64,000 bases of DNA from Escherichia coli (GCF_044647545.1 NZ_CP172818.1); one strand, 5' to 3'; shown: positions 13,120 to 59,579, counted from the first letter of the stretch. Notes: a model not told the origin generated them from the sequence alone. Program-made: numbers and translations.

Positions 13120-13712
<593 letters not shown>

Positions 13713-13713
13713 G

Positions 13714-15369
13714 CGATGGATCCGGCGGCGCAAACCACGCTGATTTAAAATCGAACCAGCCGAGGGTGTTCATACGTAGACCGCGCATACTGCGTTGCCC
13801 CTGAATGATCAGCCAGTGGTGGATAAGCGGCACCATTGCTTTGCTGGCGACCAGTTGCTGGCACCAGTTCGCCAGGTTCATTTCGCCATTGCGCCAGCGG
13901 GCGGCGTCGGCTTGCCAGTCGATGGGAAGACAGTGTTGGAGCAGCGGCACCTCGCACAAGTGCGCGAACAGCGAAAAATCCAGCGGCAGCGTAAAGTTGG
14001 CGCTGTTAAGCCAGATATCGCTCTCGATCTCTCCTTCATGCCACTGATCGTAGCTGATCTCTTTGATTTCCAGCGTGACCTGGTGACTTGCCAGAATCTG
14101 CTGCATGATCCCGGCAATCACTCGATGCTCAATATGATCCTGATAAAAGGTCAGGGTGAGGCTTTCCAGCCCGGCGGGTTTTTCGCAATGTGTCGGACGA
14201 GCATGGTGCCAACGGGGGAGCAGTCCATAAGCCGGGAACCACAGTTGCTGGTACTGTTCCTCAGCGAAATAGACCAGATTAGTTGGAGAAAGCACATAGC
14301 TTACCCAGTCCCTGACTTGCTGATTCGCCCCGCGATGGGTGCGGCTGTCGAACAGTAAATAGTAGCAACCTTCCTCCAGGCGGCTTTCAATCTCTTTTTC
14401 CTCGCCCTGTGGCCCTTTTAGCATCAGCCCTCCGGCTGGCTCGTCGGCAATTTCCGGCAGAACCCAGACGTTAACTTCGTCGATTAATGCCCGGTAACCG
14501 AAGAAGTCATCGAATGCCTGAATTTTCAGTTGATTGGTGCTGTTGCGGATCACCGCATACGGACCGGTGCCGATGGGATGGCTGGCAAAGTTACTGAGGG
14601 TTTCCCATTCGCGCGGCAGGATCATCGCCGGAACTTGCCCCAGCAGTAACGGCAACCAGCGATCCGGCTGCGTGAGGTGGATATCCAGCGTCCAGGGCGT
14701 CGGCGATACAATTTCAGCAATATGCGAATAGAGCGGCAGCGTATTGATCCGTTTTAAAGAGGCGATCACATCGTCCATTTCCAGTTCACGACCATGATGA
14801 AAATGGACTCCTGGACGCAAAAAGAAACGCCAGTGAAGCGGTGATATTTGCTGCCAGTGGTGGGCGATGTCTGCTTCCAGTTCCCCATTTTCCTCATTTA
14901 TGCGCGTTAGCGAACTGAAGATTTGCCGGGCGATATGGGTTTCGGAACGACGCAATGCACTGCCGGGCAGCAGATTACGCAACGGACGATAGTAGAGAAC
15001 GCGCAGGATGTGCCGCCCCTGGCGGAAGCTGCGTCCCAGATGAGAAACCAACATTTGCCGCACAGCCGCTTTGTCGCCAACCAGTTGCACCAGTTGATCG
15101 ATACGATCCTGCTCCAGCAGGTCTTCCGCCCGCTGTTGCTGAAGCGCCAGCCCGGTATAGAGGAATGTCAGACGCGAGCGTTTACCGCGCCCGACTTCCG
15201 CTTCCCACGTCAGCCAGCCGCGATCCTGCATGGTGTTGAGCAGGGTGCGCATATGACGACGCGAGCAACTCAGTAACGCTGCCAGTTCGTTGAGCGTGGT
15301 CTCCTGCGATTTACCCTCGCAGCATTGCCACAGGCGGATGAACTGTTGTTGCAGACGAGCAGATGGCAT
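13714..15369 (-). CDS. sgrR: sugar-phosphate stress transcriptional regulator SgrR; 3' end uncertain because the frame runs into the low-complexity tract
   Basis: Track ORF 13660..15390 (576 aa); start set at [15 protein letters not shown]; remembered length 551 aa would place the native stop near 13714, but here the frame continues ...[22 protein letters not shown] into homopolymer sequence. Confidence 0.8.
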
Positions 15370-28251: not shown

Positions 28252-30018
28252 ATGAAAGCAGCGGCGAAAACGCAGAAACCAAAACGTCAGGAAGAACATG
28301 CCAACTTTATCAGTTGGCGTTTTGCGTTGTTATGCGGCTGTATTCTCCTGGCGCTGGCTTTTCTGCTCGGACGCGTAGCGTGGTTACAAGTTATCTCCCC
28401 GGATATGCTGGTAAAAGAGGGCGACATGCGTTCTCTTCGCGTTCAGCAAGTTTCCACCTCCCGCGGCATGATTACTGACCGTTCTGGTCGCCCGTTAGCG
28501 GTGAGCGTGCCGGTAAAAGCGATTTGGGCTGACCCGAAAGAAGTGCATGACGCTGGCGGTATCAGCGTCGGTGATCGCTGGAAGGCGCTGGCTAACGCAC
28601 TCAATATTCCGCTGGATCAGCTTTCAGCCCGCATTAACGCCAACCCGAAAGGGCGCTTTATTTATCTGGCGCGTCAGGTAAACCCTGACATGGCAGAGTA
28701 CATCAAAAAACTGAAACTGCCGGGGATTCATCTGCGTGAAGAATCTCGCCGTTATTATCCATCCGGCGAAGTGACCGCTCACCTCATCGGCTTTACTAAC
28801 GTCGATAGTCAGGGGATTGAGGGCGTCGAGAAGAGTTTCGATAAATGGCTTACCGGGCAGCCGGGTGAGCGCATTGTGCGTAAAGACCGCTATGGTCGCG
28901 TAATTGAAGATATCTCTTCCACCGACAGTCAGGCGGCGCACAACCTGGCGCTGAGTATTGATGAACGCCTGCAGGCGCTGGTTTATCGCGAACTGAACAA
29001 CGCGGTGGCCTTTAACAAAGCTGAATCTGGTAGCGCCGTGCTGGTGGATGTCAACACCGGTGAAGTGCTGGCGATGGCTAACAGCCCGTCATACAACCCA
29101 AACAATCTGAGTGGCACGCCGAAAGAGGCGATGCGTAACCGTACCATCACTGACGTGTTTGAACCGGGTTCAACGGTTAAACCGATGGTGGTGATGACCG
29201 CGTTGCAACGTGGCGTAGTGCGGGAAAACTCGGTACTGAATACCGTTCCTTATCGAATTAACGGCCACGAAATCAAAGACGTGGCACGCTACAGCGAATT
29301 AACCCTGACCGGGGTATTACAGAAGTCGAGTAACGTCGGTGTTTCCAAGCTGGCGTTAGCGATGCCGTCCTCAGCGTTAGTAGATACTTACTCACGTTTT
29401 GGACTGGGAAAAGCGACCAATTTGGGGTTGGTCGGAGAACGCAGTGGCTTATATCCTCAAAAACAACGGTGGTCTGACATAGAGAGGGCCACCTTCTCTT
29501 TCGGCTACGGGCTAATGGTAACACCGTTACAGTTAGCGCGAGTCTACGCAACTATCGGCAGCTACGGCATTTATCGCCCACTGTCGATTACCAAAGTTGA
29601 CCCCCCGGTTCCCGGTGAACGAGTCTTCCCGGAATCCATTGTTCGCACCGTGGTGCATATGATGGAAAGCGTGGCGCTACCGGGCGGCGGCGGCGTGAAG
29701 GCGGCGATTAAAGGCTATCGTATCGCCATTAAAACCGGTACCGCGAAAAAGGTCGGGCCGGACGGTCGCTACATCAATAAATATATTGCTTATACCGCAG
29801 GCGTTGCGCCTGCGAGTCAGCCGCGCTTCGCGCTGGTTGTTGTTATCAACGATCCGCAGGCGGGTAAATACTACGGCGGCGCCGTTTCCGCGCCGGTCTT
29901 TGGTGCCATCATGGGCGGCGTATTGCGTACCATGAACATCGAACCGGATGCGCTGACAACGGGCGATAAAAATGAATTTGTGATTAATCAAGGCGAGGGG
30001 ACAGGTGGCAGATCGTAA
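28252..30018 (+). CDS. ftsI: peptidoglycan D,D-transpeptidase FtsI (PBP3)
   Basis: 588-aa ORF with STVK, SSN and KTGT motifs. Confidence 0.95.
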
Positions 30019-37603: not shown

Positions 37604-39992
<2,389 letters not shown>

Positions 39993-56900: not shown

Positions 56901-58274
56901 TTAATGCGCTTTTACGGCTTTGGCGGTTTTCTCTTTAAACAGATAGCCGATACCTAACACGATCAGCCATACCGGGATCAGGTATACCGAAATCGCCATT
57001 CCTGGGGTCATCAGCATAATCACCAATACCGCCGCCATAAACAGCAGGCAGATCCAGTTACCCAGCGGATAAAGCAGAGCAGGGAAGCGAGTTACCACGC
57101 CTTGTTCCTGCTTGGCGCGACGGAATTTCATATGCGCCAGGCTAATCATCGCCCAGTTGATGACCAGTGCAGATACCACCAGCGCCATTAACAGGCCGAA
57201 TGCGGATTCCGGTGCAAGGTAGTTAATCAGCACGCACAATGCCGTAACCAGCGCAGACACCAGAATAGTATTAACCGGTACACCGCGTTTGTCGACAGAC
57301 GCCAGCGCTTTTGGCGCGTTGCCCTGTTGTGCCAGACCAAACAGCATACGGCTGTTGCAATATACGCAGCTGTTGTACACGGAGAGCGCCGCAGTCAGTA
57401 CCACGATGTTCAGCGCATTTGCCACAAAGGTATCGCCTAACTCGTGGAAGATCAGCACAAACGGGCTGGTGTCAGCGGTAACGCGTGTCCACGGCATCAG
57501 TGAGAGCAGAACGGCTAACGAACCAATGTAGAAAATCAGGATGCGGTAGATAACCTGGTTAGTCGCTTTTGGAATACTTTGCTCCGGGTTATCTGCTTCT
57601 GCTGCGGTGATGCCCACCAGTTCCAGACCACCGAAAGAGAACATGATAATCGCCATCATCATCACCAGCCCGGTGAAGCCGTGCGGCAGGAAACCACCCT
57701 GATCCCACAGGTTGCTAACGGTCGCCTGCGGGCCGCCGTTGCCACTGAATAGCAGCCAGCCGCCGAAGATGATCATCGCTACCACCGCGATAACTTTGAT
57801 AATGGCAAACCAGAACTCCATCTCGCCAAACACTTTTACGTTTGTCAGGTTGATGGCGTTGATCACCACAAAGAACACGGCGGCAGAAACCCAGGTGGGG
57901 ATTTCCGGATACCAGAACTGAATGTATTTACCCACGGCAGTCAGCTCTGCCATGGCAACTAAAACGTACAGTACCCAGTAGTTCCAGCCAGAGGCGAAAC
58001 CGGCAAAACTGCCCCAGTATTTATAAGCAAAGTGGCTAAAGGAGCCTGCGACAGGTTCTTCGACCACCATTTCACCTAGCTGACGCATGATCAGAAAGGC
58101 GATAAAACCAGCAATGGCGTAACCCAGGATAATCCCTGGCCCTGCAGACTGTATTACGGAGGCGCTACCCAGGAATAGCCCGGTCCCTATCGCGCCACCC
58201 AGCGCGATAAGCTGAATATGGCGGTTTTTAAGGCCGCGCTTTAGCTGCTCGCCGTGCTGTTGACCTTCCATCAT
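56901..58274 (-). CDS. aroP: aromatic amino acid:H+ symporter (APC family)
   Basis: 457-aa polytopic ORF, MMEGQQHGEQLKRGLKNRHIQLIALGGAIGTGLF. Confidence 0.95.
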   Translation of the reverse strand: MMEGQQHGEQLKRGLKNRHIQLIALGGAIGTGLFLGSASVIQSAGPGIILGYAIAGFIAFLIMRQLGEMVVEEPVAGSFSHFAYKYWGSFAGFASGWNYWVLYVLVAMAELTAVGKYIQFWYPEIPTWVSAAVFFVVINAINLTNVKVFGEMEFWFAIIKVIAVVAMIIFGGWLLFSGNGGPQATVSNLWDQGGFLPHGFTGLVMMMAIIMFSFGGLELVGITAAEADNPEQSIPKATNQVIYRILIFYIGSLAVLLSLMPWTRVTADTSPFVLIFHELGDTFVANALNIVVLTAALSVYNSCVYCNSRMLFGLAQQGNAPKALASVDKRGVPVNTILVSALVTALCVLINYLAPESAFGLLMALVVSALVINWAMISLAHMKFRRAKQEQGVVTRFPALLYPLGNWICLLFMAAVLVIMLMTPGMAISVYLIPVWLIVLGIGYLFKEKTAKAVKAH

Positions 58275-58766
58275 GAAACCTCGTGCGGTGATTGTTTTTT
58301 TGATCTACGCAGTGATGCGTGTGTAAGTTTGCAATTCCGTTTGTTGTATTAATTTGTTTACATCAAAGAAGTTTGAATTGTTACAAAAAGACTTCCGTCA
58401 GATCAAGAATAATGGTATGTGACAGCGAATGCACCCGCTTTATGCATGGTTGAAGATGAGTTGCTTAAAAAGAAACCGTTTGTAAAGCTCAGCCTCAACC
58501 CCTCTCAATATGCAGAATGAATTTAAATTCGTTTTAATTGAATTAAAAATCACAAAATTGGTAAGTGAATCGGTTCAATTCGGATTTTTATAGTTTAATA
58601 ATCGTTAAAAAATCCCTTTCCTACGTAAAGTCTACATTTGTGCATAGTTACAACTTTGAAACGTTATATATGTCAAGTTGTTAAAATGTGCACAGTTTCA
58701 TGATTTCAATCAAAACCTGTATGGACATAAGGTGAATACTTTGTTACTTTAGCGTCACAGACATGA

Positions 58767-58783
58767 AATTGGTAAGACCAATT
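58767..58783. promoter_or_regulatory. PdhR operator palindrome (aattggtaagaccaatt) at the pdhR promoter
   Basis: Perfect inverted repeat ATTGGT-nnn-ACCAAT about 30 bp upstream of the pdhR start. Confidence 0.8.
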
Positions 58784-58814: not shown

Positions 58815-59579
58815 ATGGCCTACAGCAAAATCCGCCAACCAAAACTCTCCGATGTGATTGAGCAGCAACTGGAGTTTTTGATCCTCGAAGGCACTCTCCG
58901 CCCGGGCGAAAAACTCCCACCGGAACGCGAACTGGCAAAACAGTTTGACGTCTCCCGTCCCTCATTGCGTGAGGCGATTCAACGTCTCGAAGCGAAGGGC
59001 TTGTTGCTTCGTCGCCAGGGTGGCGGCACTTTTGTCCAGAGCAGCCTATGGCAAAGCTTCAGCGATCCGCTGGTGGAGCTGCTCTCCGACCATCCTGAAT
59101 CACAGTATGACTTGCTCGAAACACGACACGCCCTGGAAGGTATCGCCGCTTATTACGCCGCGCTGCGTAGTACCGATGAAGACAAGGAACGCATCCGTGA
59201 ACTCCACCACGCTATAGAGCTGGCGCAGCAGTCTGGCGATCTGGACGCGGAATCAAACGCCGTACTCCAGTATCAGATTGCCGTCACCGAAGCGGCCCAC
59301 AATGTGGTTCTGCTTCATCTGCTAAGGTGTATGGAGCCGATGTTGGCCCAGAATGTCCGCCAGAACTTCGAATTGCTCTATTCGCGTCGCGAGATGCTGC
59401 CGCTGGTGAGTAGTCACCGCACCCGCATATTTGAAGCGATTATGGCCGGTAAGCCGGAAGAAGCGCGCGAAGCATCGCATCGCCATCTGGCCTTTATCGA
59501 AGAAATTTTGCTCGACAGAAGCCGTGAAGAGAGCCGCCGTGAGCGTTCTCTGCGTCGTCTGGAGCAACGAAAGAATTAG
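58815..59579 (+). CDS. pdhR: pyruvate dehydrogenase complex repressor (GntR family)
   Basis: Track ORF 58782..59579; start set at [14 protein letters not shown] (254 aa). Confidence 0.9.

What the first reader, a model, noticed from the sequence alone, without database searches (positions are those of the whole stretch)
58556..58783. 11-bp motif aaattggtaag from the PdhR operator recurs about 210 bp upstream
The canonical PdhR palindrome (aattggtaagaccaatt, 58767..58783) sits at the pdhR promoter. The same left half plus spacer (aaattggtaag) occurs at 58556..58566, followed by ...ttcaatt, which gives an imperfect, wider-spaced inverted repeat. This could be a weak auxiliary PdhR half-site in the long aroP–pdhR intergenic region, or chance in AT-rich DNA.
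Basis: seen in the sequence. Interest (0 to 1): 0.25.

Follow-up and report, generated by a model that had tools for sequence, protein, structure and literature searches.

The report
Chance PdhR half-site beside Cra box
The second copy of the PdhR operator's left half upstream of pdhR is real, but it is a young sequence found only in Escherichia and does not look like a working PdhR site; the conserved element at that spot is the sequence right next to it, which fits the binding motif of the carbon regulator Cra.

Summary
The window is the E. coli aroP–pdhR spacer.

The upstream copy is only a left half-site:
- It has no partner half (8 of 14 consensus positions; GGTnnnACC core broken).
- It scores 3.6 bits against 25.0 for the operator and at least 16.6 for validated sites.
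- Across 80 Enterobacterales pdhR loci the operator is kept in all 80, but the 11-mer is exact only in Escherichia.
- It is absent from both sampled E. coli genomes that carry the usp island in this spacer.

The 12 bases immediately 3' of it, TGAATCGGTTCA (58566..58577), are 93% conserved. They lie 199–202 bp from the PdhR box in 70 loci and fit the Cra/FruR motif.

Best reading: the 11-mer is a lineage-specific coincidence beside a conserved Cra-type operator.

One caveat remains. The grcA (yfiD) PdhR operator also has an Escherichia-only 11-nt copy of its own half-site plus spacer, 146 bp away (replicate P≈0.03). A weak, genus-specific auxiliary role is therefore not excluded. Interest is low.

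The parts
58555..58565 (+). Upstream copy of AAATTGGTAAG: an isolated PdhR-type left half-site (AATTGGT, 58556..58562) plus the 'AAG' spacer. It has no right half-site.
   Evidence: Exact match. The 17-mer starting at 58556 scores 3.6 bits against 25.0 for the operator. Identity among 77 non-Escherichia loci is 33%. It is exact only in Escherichia.
58566..58577 (.). Conserved Cra/FruR-type operator core TGAATCGGTTCA (TGAA-N4-TTCA with central CG), directly abutting the 11-mer. Its centre is about -185.5 from the pdhR transcription start.
   Evidence: It is the only zero-mismatch match to TGAAWCGNTTCA in the window. It occurs once per locus in 70 of 80 pdhR loci, on the same strand, 199-202 bp from the PdhR box. 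Identity is 93%. The motif is taken from PMC5888115.
58574..58580 (+). Its first four bases (TTCA) are the right arm of the Cra-type box.
   Evidence: Read directly from the sequence and the alignment.
58767..58783 (.). Canonical PdhR operator AATTGGTAAGACCAATT, at +11..+27 relative to the pdhR transcription start.
   Evidence: Top weight-matrix hit in the window. Present in all 80 loci with invariant half-sites. Listed as the single PdhR box of this spacer in PMC7660256.
58719..58757 (+). pdhR promoter (pdhRP1-P2). The transcription start is the A at 58757, 58 nt before the ATG.
   Evidence: Promoter sequence and start site from PMC2759082, mapped onto. The block is nearly invariant in 77 loci.
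58815..59579 (+). pdhR coding sequence (254 aa plus stop).
   Evidence: ORF; annotation; homologues 87-100% identical in 80 loci.
56901..58274 (-). aroP coding sequence, transcribed divergently from pdhR.
   Evidence: ORF; annotation.
58413..58418 (+). -10 hexamer TGGTAT of the divergent aroP P3 promoter, which points toward pdhR. The 11-mer and the Cra-type box lie about 130-150 bp downstream of it.
   Evidence: Hexamer from PMC7142922. It lies in the conserved ATAATGGTATG block.
58657..58668 (+). Second, weaker Cra-consensus match TGAAACGTTATA (good left half, poor right half). Its centre is about -94.5 from the transcription start.
   Evidence: Matches TGAAWCSNTHHW. Identity among 77 loci is 82%.

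Best explanation
The upstream AAATTGGTAAG is a sequence specific to the Escherichia lineage that happens to reproduce the left half and spacer of the pdhR operator. It is most likely not a functional PdhR site.

PdhR is a GntR/FadR-family dimer and needs two half-sites 3 bp apart (AATTGGTnnnACCAATT, core GGTnnnACC). Here only the left half exists. The homologous Citrobacter sequence (AAATAGGCAGG) already matches 8 of the 11 bases, so three point substitutions in a fast-evolving AT-rich stretch are enough to create it (inferred).

The functional element at this position is the adjoining, deeply conserved 12-mer TGAATCGGTTCA. It fits the Cra (FruR) operator and sits a fixed ~200 bp upstream of the PdhR operator. 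Cra is reported to bind and repress pdhR-aceEF-lpd in vivo. That this particular box is the bound site is inferred, not shown.

Autoregulation by PdhR works through the single operator at +11..+27, which blocks transcription from the start at 58757.
For: (1) There is no right half-site. The 17-mer at 58556 is AATTGGTAAGTGAATCG, which matches 8 of 14 consensus positions and has the GGTnnnACC core broken. PMC7660256 states that this core is needed for tight binding.

(2) With a weight matrix built from published sites it scores 3.6 bits (7 strong sites) or 1.4 bits (all 28 sites). The operator scores 25.0 and 22.0, and the weakest strong site scores 16.6. The site ranks 103rd and 387th in the window and only 4th in its own spacer.

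(3) In 80 Enterobacterales pdhR loci the operator is present in all 80. The 11-mer is exact only in E. coli and Escherichia sp. E1V33, and reads AAGTTGGTAAG in E. albertii. Its columns are 33% identical in the 77 other loci, against 66% for the spacer as a whole.

(4) Extra half-sites elsewhere upstream of pdhR occur in only 4 of the 77 loci, at scattered positions.

(5) Within E. coli, 1,062 of 5,426 genomes lack this allele. Both sampled genomes of that class (CFT073 and ST131) read gttgcttggTGAATCGGTTCA, so the 11-mer is gone and the Cra-type box is kept.

(6) The Cra-type box is unique in the 64 kb. It is present in 70 of 80 loci at 199-202 bp from the PdhR box, varying only at two positions, T/A at the 5th base and G/C at the 8th.

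(7) Cra ChIP-exo and RNA-seq place pdhR-aceEF-lpd in the Cra regulon (PMC5888115).

(8) The gSELEX table lists one PdhR box in this spacer. Its 86-bp peak offset is typical for that dataset (median 79.5 bp).
Against: - The recurrence is nominally unlikely (P about 0.005).
- All seven sampled island-free E. coli alleles keep the 11-mer although the ~35 bp to its 5' side vary.
- The 211-bp spacing is close to 20 helical turns.
- Independently, the grcA/yfiD PdhR operator has an isolated 11-nt copy of its own half-site plus spacer (AATTGGTAAAA) 146 bp upstream. That copy is also restricted to Escherichia. The chance that at least one of six other strong operators shows this is 0.028, and that two or more of seven show it is 0.0005.
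- No experiment with enough resolution to show PdhR absent from the site was available.
- The coordinates of the Cra ChIP-exo peak could not be retrieved. Kim et al. describe it as 'downstream of two promoters', which fits the box at -185 only if promoters further upstream (such as aroP P3) are meant.
Confidence: 0.78

Rival explanations
1. It is an auxiliary PdhR half-site specific to Escherichia. A second PdhR dimer is held weakly at 58556..58572 and cooperates with the dimer on the main operator 211 bp away, by looping or by raising local concentration. It might also compete with Cra, because a 17-bp PdhR footprint there would cover the left half of the Cra-type box.
For: - Nominal P is about 0.005.
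- The 211-bp spacing is about 20 helical turns.
- The motif is kept in all seven sampled island-free E. coli alleles and in a cryptic Escherichia clade.
- There is a parallel isolated copy of half-site plus own spacer at grcA, with replicate P of 0.028.
- A-rich spacers are common among strong PdhR sites.
- lldP carries a second, fuller box 126 bp from its first. From memory, these are the two LldR operators for which looping was proposed.
Against: - There is no second half-site, and the weight-matrix score is at background.
- The motif is not conserved outside Escherichia at either pdhR or grcA, although every other regulatory block in those promoters is conserved.
- It is absent from the usp-island allele, which accounts for up to about 20% of E. 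coli genomes.
- In CFT073 an IS3 element separates this whole region from pdhR.
- cyoA, lldP, glcD and ppsA have no isolated half-site.
- With the pdhR case that prompted the test excluded, extra exact half-sites occur at 2 of 6 operators (P about 0.17, computed by hand).
- PdhR is not known to form tetramers or to loop DNA.
Confidence: 0.1
2. It is a non-functional by-product of mutation. A templated event (template switching or short-patch conversion) copied from the nearby operator turned an already similar sequence into an exact 11-nt copy. The same happened independently at grcA.
For: - Both copies reproduce the spacer of their own local operator (AAG at pdhR, AAAA at grcA), which selection for PdhR binding does not require.
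- Both are young and restricted to Escherichia.
- The Citrobacter homologue is already an 8-of-11 quasi-repeat.
- Chance alone gives two or more of seven operators with P of 0.0005.
Against: - There is no direct evidence for the mechanism.
- The distances (146 and 211 bp) are long for the template-switch events I know of (from memory).
- E. albertii carries a one-base variant at pdhR, so a single clean conversion is not required.
- Ordinary substitutions explain the data equally well.
Confidence: 0.08
3. The conserved 12-mer, and with it the flank that overlaps the 11-mer, belongs to a regulator other than Cra. PlaR (YiaJ) is the obvious candidate, since it gave a gSELEX peak in the aroP/pdhR spacer.
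For: PMC6958661 lists AroP, PdhR and aceEF-lpd among PlaR gSELEX targets after five selection cycles. Its reported box, ATnTGAAACnnnGTTCAnTT, shares the TGAA/TTCA arms.
Against: - The spacing differs. PlaR has 6 bases between TGAA and TTCA, whereas the conserved box has 4, as in Cra.
- The best PlaR-core match in the spacer has 2 mismatches, and 21 sites in the window match equally well. The Cra core matches with 0 mismatches and is unique.
- The spacer was not among the 12 PlaR probes verified by gel shift.
Confidence: 0.04

Closest known systems
PdhR operator of the pdhR-aceEF-lpd promoter (PdhR box AATTGGTnnnACCAATT; GntR/FadR-family repressor released by pyruvate)
   Same: The upstream copy has an exact left half-site (AATTGGT), the same three spacer bases and one flanking A as the real operator 211 bp downstream.
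   Different: It has no right half-site (1 of 7 bases) and the GGTnnnACC core is broken. Its weight-matrix score is at background, it is not conserved outside Escherichia, and it lies at -202..-192 rather than +11..+27.
Cra (FruR) operator, motif gcTGAAtCGaTTCAgc (LacI family; released by fructose 1-phosphate and fructose 1,6-bisphosphate)
   Same: The adjoining 12-mer TGAATCGGTTCA matches all ten strongly specified positions and has the correct TGAA-N4-TTCA geometry. Its variation across genera falls mainly at the two weakly specified positions. The adjacent operon is a reported Cra target.
   Different: The outer 'gc' flanks are not matched in E. coli (AG...AT). Its position near -185 is unusual for a repressor site. 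Binding of Cra to this exact box was not verified here.
Two-operator arrangement at lldPRD (two boxes about 126 bp apart, bound by the PdhR paralogue LldR; looping model recalled from memory, Aguilera et al. 2008)
   Same: A strong GntR-family box is paired with a second related sequence 100-200 bp away in the same promoter region.
   Different: At lldP the second site is a near-complete palindrome (AATTGGCAGTGCCACTT, 13 bits). At pdhR it is a bare half-site.
Isolated half-site copy at the grcA (yfiD) promoter of E. coli
   Same: A main PdhR box lies just upstream of the gene. An 11-nt copy of its left half plus its own spacer (AATTGGTAAAA) lies 146 bp further upstream and is restricted to E. 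coli and E. albertii.
   Different: The copy is inverted relative to the box rather than direct. No Cra-type box adjoins it.

Membership tests
PdhR operator (PdhR box) | Two inverted half-sites AATTGGT / ACCAATT separated by 3 bp | tested here: not met
   The sequence at 58556..58572 is AATTGGTAAGTGAATCG. The left half matches 7 of 7 and the right half 1 of 7. The nearest ACCAATT-like sequence (TTCAATT, 5 of 7) is 11 bp from the left half instead of 3.
PdhR operator (PdhR box) | Palindromic core GGTnnnACC, stated in PMC7660256 to be needed for tight binding | tested here: not met
   The sequence reads GGTAAGTGA, so the ACC half of the core scores 0 of 3.
PdhR operator (PdhR box) | Weight-matrix score in the range of experimentally supported sites | tested here: not met
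   It scores 3.6 bits, against 16.6-25.0 for the seven strong sites, and ranks 103rd of 63,984 positions in the window.
PdhR operator (PdhR box) | Conservation in genomes that keep PdhR and its operator | tested here: not met
   None of the 77 non-Escherichia loci has it at the homologous position, while the operator is present in all 80 loci. It is absent from both sampled usp-island E. coli genomes, CFT073 and ST131.
PdhR operator (PdhR box) | PdhR occupancy that is released by pyruvate | not testable with these tools
   gSELEX-chip reports one peak and one box for the spacer. Peak-to-box offsets have a median of 79.5 bp, so two sites 211 bp apart are not resolved. The footprinting papers are not held.
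Cra/FruR operator (for the adjoining 12-mer, 58566..58577) | Motif TGAA-N4-TTCA with central CG (gcTGAAtCGaTTCAgc) | tested here: met
   There are zero mismatches to TGAAWCGNTTCA, and it is the only such site in 64 kb. The motif is quoted from PMC5888115.
Cra/FruR operator (for the adjoining 12-mer, 58566..58577) | Purifying selection that fits the motif's information content | tested here: met
   70 of 80 loci match. The four variants among them differ only at the 5th base (T/A) and the 8th base (G/C). The box lies 199-202 bp from the PdhR box in every case.
Cra/FruR operator (for the adjoining 12-mer, 58566..58577) | Cra binds this site and regulates the adjacent operon | tested here: inconclusive
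   PMC5888115 reports Cra ChIP-exo binding and repression of pdhR-aceEF-lpd. No coordinates are held, and the phrase 'downstream of two promoters' is ambiguous. A one-mismatch site also exists inside pdhR at 58970..58981.
PlaR (YiaJ) box | ATnTGAAACnnnGTTCAnTT, with 6 bases between TGAA and TTCA | tested here: not met
   The conserved box has 4 bases between the arms. The best PlaR-core match in the spacer has 2 mismatches, a level reached by 21 sites in the window.
Dual-operator looping repressor systems | Two operators, each able to bind the repressor, plus a repressor that forms higher-order oligomers | tested here: not met
   The second site is only a half-site. PdhR oligomerisation beyond a dimer was not tested and is not known to me.

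The most novel reading that the evidence does not exclude
In the genus Escherichia only, the two PdhR operators with the highest published gSELEX intensities (pdhR and grcA/yfiD) have each acquired an isolated copy of their own left half-site plus spacer, 146-211 bp upstream. These copies would act as low-affinity auxiliary PdhR sites that sharpen or bias the pyruvate response. At pdhR such a site would also let PdhR and Cra compete for overlapping DNA (58556..58572 against 58564..58579), coupling the pyruvate and fructose-phosphate signals.
Probability: 0.1. Interest if true: 0.45.

Novelty: not a real feature. Interest (0 to 1): 0.17.

Why it matters
If the main reading holds, nothing new is added to pdhR regulation. 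PdhR acts through its single known operator, and the long aroP–pdhR spacer is organised by known kinds of sites (TyrR/P3, a Cra-type box, FNR/CRP, PdhR).

Three practical points come out of it:
1. A shared 11-mer in AT-rich DNA is not evidence of a second operator.
2. The well-conserved, position-locked Cra-type box at about -185 is the element worth annotating at these coordinates.
3. The usp island and an IS3 element naturally separate or replace this region in many uropathogenic strains, which makes ready-made test strains.

If the minority reading were true, it would be an example of regulatory fine-tuning that arose recently, within one genus, by gain of half-sites.

Tried and rejected
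- **Upstream copy as a full PdhR site.** Weight-matrix scan; rejected.
- **Wider-spaced inverted repeat.** It has only 5-bp arms, and the right arm overlaps the Cra-type box; rejected.
- **Duplication of the operator region.** There is no similarity beyond the 11 bases; rejected.
- **A small RNA in the spacer.** No Rfam match at E up to 1.
- **A promoter or terminator at the motif.** None found.
- **PlaR as owner of the conserved box.** The half-site spacing does not fit.
- **The gSELEX peak lying 86 bp upstream of the box as a hint of a second site.** That offset is typical for the dataset.
- **A general PdhR architecture of isolated half-sites.** cyoA, lldP, glcD and ppsA have none. The extra half-site at ndh is fairly conserved but lies inside a different palindrome, TTAAC-N5-GTTAA, next to the start codon. 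The grcA copy is restricted to Escherichia.
- **Literature that led nowhere.** No supplements are held for Kim 2018. Shimada 2011, Ogasawara 2007, Wyborn 2002 and Quail & Guest 1995 are not held. The 12-mer is not printed in any held bacterial paper. No PdhR ChIP-exo dataset was found.

Full report
**Locus and observation.** The window is E. coli DNA. aroP lies at 56901..58274 on the minus strand and pdhR starts at 58815 on the plus strand, leaving a 540-bp spacer. AAATTGGTAAG occurs exactly twice in the 64 kb, at 58555..58565 and 58766..58776, which is 211 bp apart. The palindrome AATTGGTAAGACCAATT is at 58767..58783 as stated. With an offset of +63277, the K-12 coordinates are 121832..121842 for the upstream copy and 122044..122060 for the operator. 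The operator's centre, 122052, is the position given for the single PdhR box of this spacer in the gSELEX study PMC7660256. The pdhR transcription start is an A 58 nt before the ATG (PMC2759082), which is window 58757. The operator therefore lies at +11..+27 and the upstream copy at about -202..-192.

**Is it more than chance?** The specific 11-mer is expected 0.04 times per shuffled window. In dinucleotide shuffles of the spacer, a word of at least 11 nt that overlaps the operator by at least 7 nt recurs in about 0.5% of trials. Against that, a shuffled 64-kb window contains about 10.6 exact 11-mer pairs within 541 bp of each other. The real window has about 17 in ordinary sequence, not counting a low-complexity block, REP-like repeats and the aceF lipoyl-domain repeats. 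The pair was also noticed after the fact. Statistics alone are suggestive but not decisive.

**Is it a PdhR site?** The 17-mer starting at 58556 is AATTGGTAAGTGAATCG. Its left half matches 7 of 7 and its right half 1 of 7. The GGTnnnACC core, which PMC7660256 considers necessary for tight binding, is broken. I built symmetric weight matrices from the 28 box sequences in that paper's Table 1. The site scores 3.6 bits with the seven strongest sites, where the operator scores 25.0 and the weakest training site 16.6. It scores 1.4 bits with all 28 sites. It ranks 103rd and 387th in the window and only 4th in its own spacer. The 'wider-spaced inverted repeat' is AATTG…CAATT, with 5-bp arms. The nearest ACCAATT-like sequence (TTCAATT) is separated from the left half by 11 bp rather than 3.

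**Conservation.** A scan of one genome per species returned 80 Enterobacterales loci that encode PdhR at 87–100% identity.
- The operator is present in all 80, 47–65 bp before the ATG, with both half-sites invariant. Only the 3-bp spacer varies, in nine loci.
- The upstream 11-mer is exact only in an E. coli locus and in Escherichia sp. E1V33. E. albertii has AAGTTGGTAAG. Salmonella, Citrobacter, Kluyvera, Klebsiella, Enterobacter and the rest have unrelated bases at the homologous position.
- Identity to the window among the 77 non-Escherichia loci is 33% for the 11-mer columns. It is 66% for the whole spacer, 99% for the operator and 93% for the 12 bases that follow the 11-mer.
- Extra exact half-sites anywhere within 900 bp upstream of pdhR occur in only 4 of the 77 loci, at scattered positions. 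That is about what chance predicts (0.11 per spacer).
- The homologous Citrobacter sequence, AAATAGGCAGG, already matches 8 of 11 bases. Three substitutions are enough to produce the E. coli sequence (inference).

**Within E. coli.** The 51-mer around the motif is found in 4,364 of 5,426 complete genomes and is exact in about 3,540.
- All seven island-free alleles I sampled keep the 11-mer, including the most divergent ones, although the ~35 bp to its 5' side vary.
- That invariance extends equally through the next ~20 bp beyond the conserved box, which are not conserved between genera. Within-species invariance is therefore not informative here.
- The remaining ~1,060 genomes lack the allele. 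Both that I sampled (CFT073 and an ST131 strain) carry the usp pathogenicity island in the spacer, as described in PMC7142922.
- Both of those genomes read gttgcttggTGAATCGGTTCA at the homologous place. The 11-mer is absent and the following 12-mer is intact, still 202 bp from the operator in ST131.
- In CFT073 an IS3-family element additionally leaves only 143 bp of native sequence upstream of pdhR.

**What is really there.** TGAATCGGTTCA (58566..58577) has the geometry TGAA-N4-TTCA with a central CG. It matches every strongly specified position of the Cra/FruR motif quoted in PMC5888115 (ctgaAtCGaTtcag; gcTGAAtCGaTTCAgc).
- It is the only zero-mismatch match to TGAAWCGNTTCA in the window.
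- It occurs exactly once per locus in 70 of the 80 loci, always on the same strand.
- It lies 199–202 bp upstream of the PdhR box in every one of those loci.
- The four variants among the 70 matching loci differ only at the 5th base (T/A) and the 8th base (G/C), which are the weakly specified positions of the motif.

Kim et al. report Cra ChIP-exo binding at pdhR-aceEF-lpd and repression of the operon, so Cra control of the operon is known. I could not retrieve their coordinates. Their wording, 'downstream of two promoters', fits this box only if promoters further upstream are meant. The divergent aroP P3 promoter is one candidate: its -10 hexamer TGGTAT lies at 58413..58418 and it points toward pdhR. 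A one-mismatch Cra-like site inside pdhR (58970..58981) is an alternative for their peak. PlaR also gave a gSELEX peak in this spacer (PMC6958661). Its box has six bases between the TGAA and TTCA arms, nothing in the spacer fits it better than background, and the spacer was not among its gel-shift-verified targets. I therefore assign the conserved box to Cra. The motif fit and the conservation are shown. The binding itself is inferred.

**A complication followed up.** I asked whether isolated half-sites accompany other strong PdhR operators, using a K-12-like genome.
- Extra exact half-sites within ±300 bp occur at 3 of 7 operators (pdhR, ndh and grcA). P is 0.048 under shuffles. It is about 0.17 by my own calculation from the per-operator probabilities once the pdhR case that prompted the test is excluded.
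- The grcA (yfiD) case closely resembles pdhR. The main box AATTGGTAAAACCATTG lies just upstream of the gene, and an isolated, inverted AATTGGTAAAA lies 146 bp further upstream. That is again 11 nt made of the left half plus the operator's own spacer.
- The chance that at least one of the six other operators shows a self-copy of at least 11 nt is 0.028. The chance of two or more among seven is 0.0005.
- I fetched grcA loci from eight further species. The main box is invariant in all nine, but the isolated copy exists only in E. coli and E. albertii.
- The extra AATTGGT at ndh is fairly conserved (exact in 3 of 5 species). However, it sits inside a different palindrome, TTAAC-N5-GTTAA, next to the start codon, so it cannot be credited to PdhR.
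- lldP has a second, near-complete box 126 bp from the first. From memory, this is the second LldR operator.

There is thus no architecture of isolated PdhR half-sites conserved across genera. There are, however, two Escherichia-only copies at the two operators with the highest published gSELEX intensities. Three readings remain: coincidence, a templated mutational origin (which would explain why each copy carries its own operator's spacer), or a young auxiliary function. I rank them in that order.

**Mechanism, with status.**
- *Shown in the literature, consistent here:* PdhR represses its own operon through the single operator at +11..+27 and is released by pyruvate.
- *Shown here:* the upstream copy lacks the features of a PdhR site and is not conserved. 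The adjoining box has the sequence, the conservation and the fixed position expected of a Cra operator.
- *Inferred:* Cra binds that box and modulates transcription that enters or starts at pdhR. The 11-mer itself does nothing.

**Verdict.** The 'auxiliary half-site' reading is not supported. Interest is low (0.17).

Noticed in passing
window 13129..13716: About 590 bp of homopolymer-rich sequence (56% A, mean run length 3.6) between the thiB/TPP-riboswitch side and sgrR. Both flanks match E. coli FDAARGOS_497 at 98.6-100%, but that genome has a 570-bp gene annotated espY2 there. It looks like an assembly or consensus artefact, or deliberately corrupted sequence, rather than biology.
   Followed up: partly
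window 58657..58668: A second match to the Cra consensus (TGAAACGTTATA), with a good left half and a poor right half. It is 82% conserved in 77 loci and centred about -94.5 from the pdhR transcription start, 91 bp from the first Cra-type box.
   Followed up: partly
window 58970..58981: A one-mismatch Cra-like sequence (TGAGGCGATTCA on the + strand) inside the pdhR coding region. It could be the Cra ChIP-exo site that Kim et al. describe as 'downstream of two promoters'.
   Followed up: no
aroP-pdhR spacer, window ~58480..58680; L081 (CFT073) and L082 (ST131): About 20% of complete E. coli genomes lack the K-12-type allele of this part of the spacer. The two sampled carry the usp/imu pathogenicity island, inserted between the aroP P3 promoter and the Cra-type box. 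CFT073 also has an IS3-family element only 143 bp upstream of pdhR, which displaces both Cra-type boxes.
   Followed up: partly
L093:11636..11652 (E. coli 3FA, upstream of grcA/yfiD): An isolated inverted copy AATTGGTAAAA of the grcA PdhR box's left half plus spacer, 146 bp from the box. It is present only in E. coli and E. albertii among nine species.
   Followed up: yes
L092:4046..4066 (E. coli 3FA, just upstream of the ndh start codon): A conserved near-palindrome TTAACAATTGGTTAA (TTAAC-N5-GTTAA) about 20-35 bp before the ndh start codon. It contains an AATTGGT that is not part of a PdhR box. The regulator is unknown to me.
   Followed up: partly
window 58700..58713: ATGATTTCAATCAA, an FNR/CRP-type TTGAT-N4-ATCAA-like site centred about -50.5 from the pdhR transcription start. 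It is invariant in the 77 non-Escherichia loci.
   Followed up: no
window 58639..58652 and 58687..58700: A direct repeat, TGTGCATAGTTACA and TGTGCACAGTTTCA, 48 bp apart. Both copies lie in blocks that are strongly conserved across genera, and no regulator has been assigned.
   Followed up: no
window 39958..39974 and 29513..29529: PdhR weight-matrix hits outside the spacer. AGTTGGTAGTACGAATT scores 16.5 bits with the strong-site matrix. TAATGGTAACACCGTTA scores 13.4 bits and equals the ftsI-internal gSELEX site of PMC7660256 with one substitution. By K-12 coordinate offset both lie in the dcw cell-division cluster; the gene assignment was not verified.
   Followed up: no
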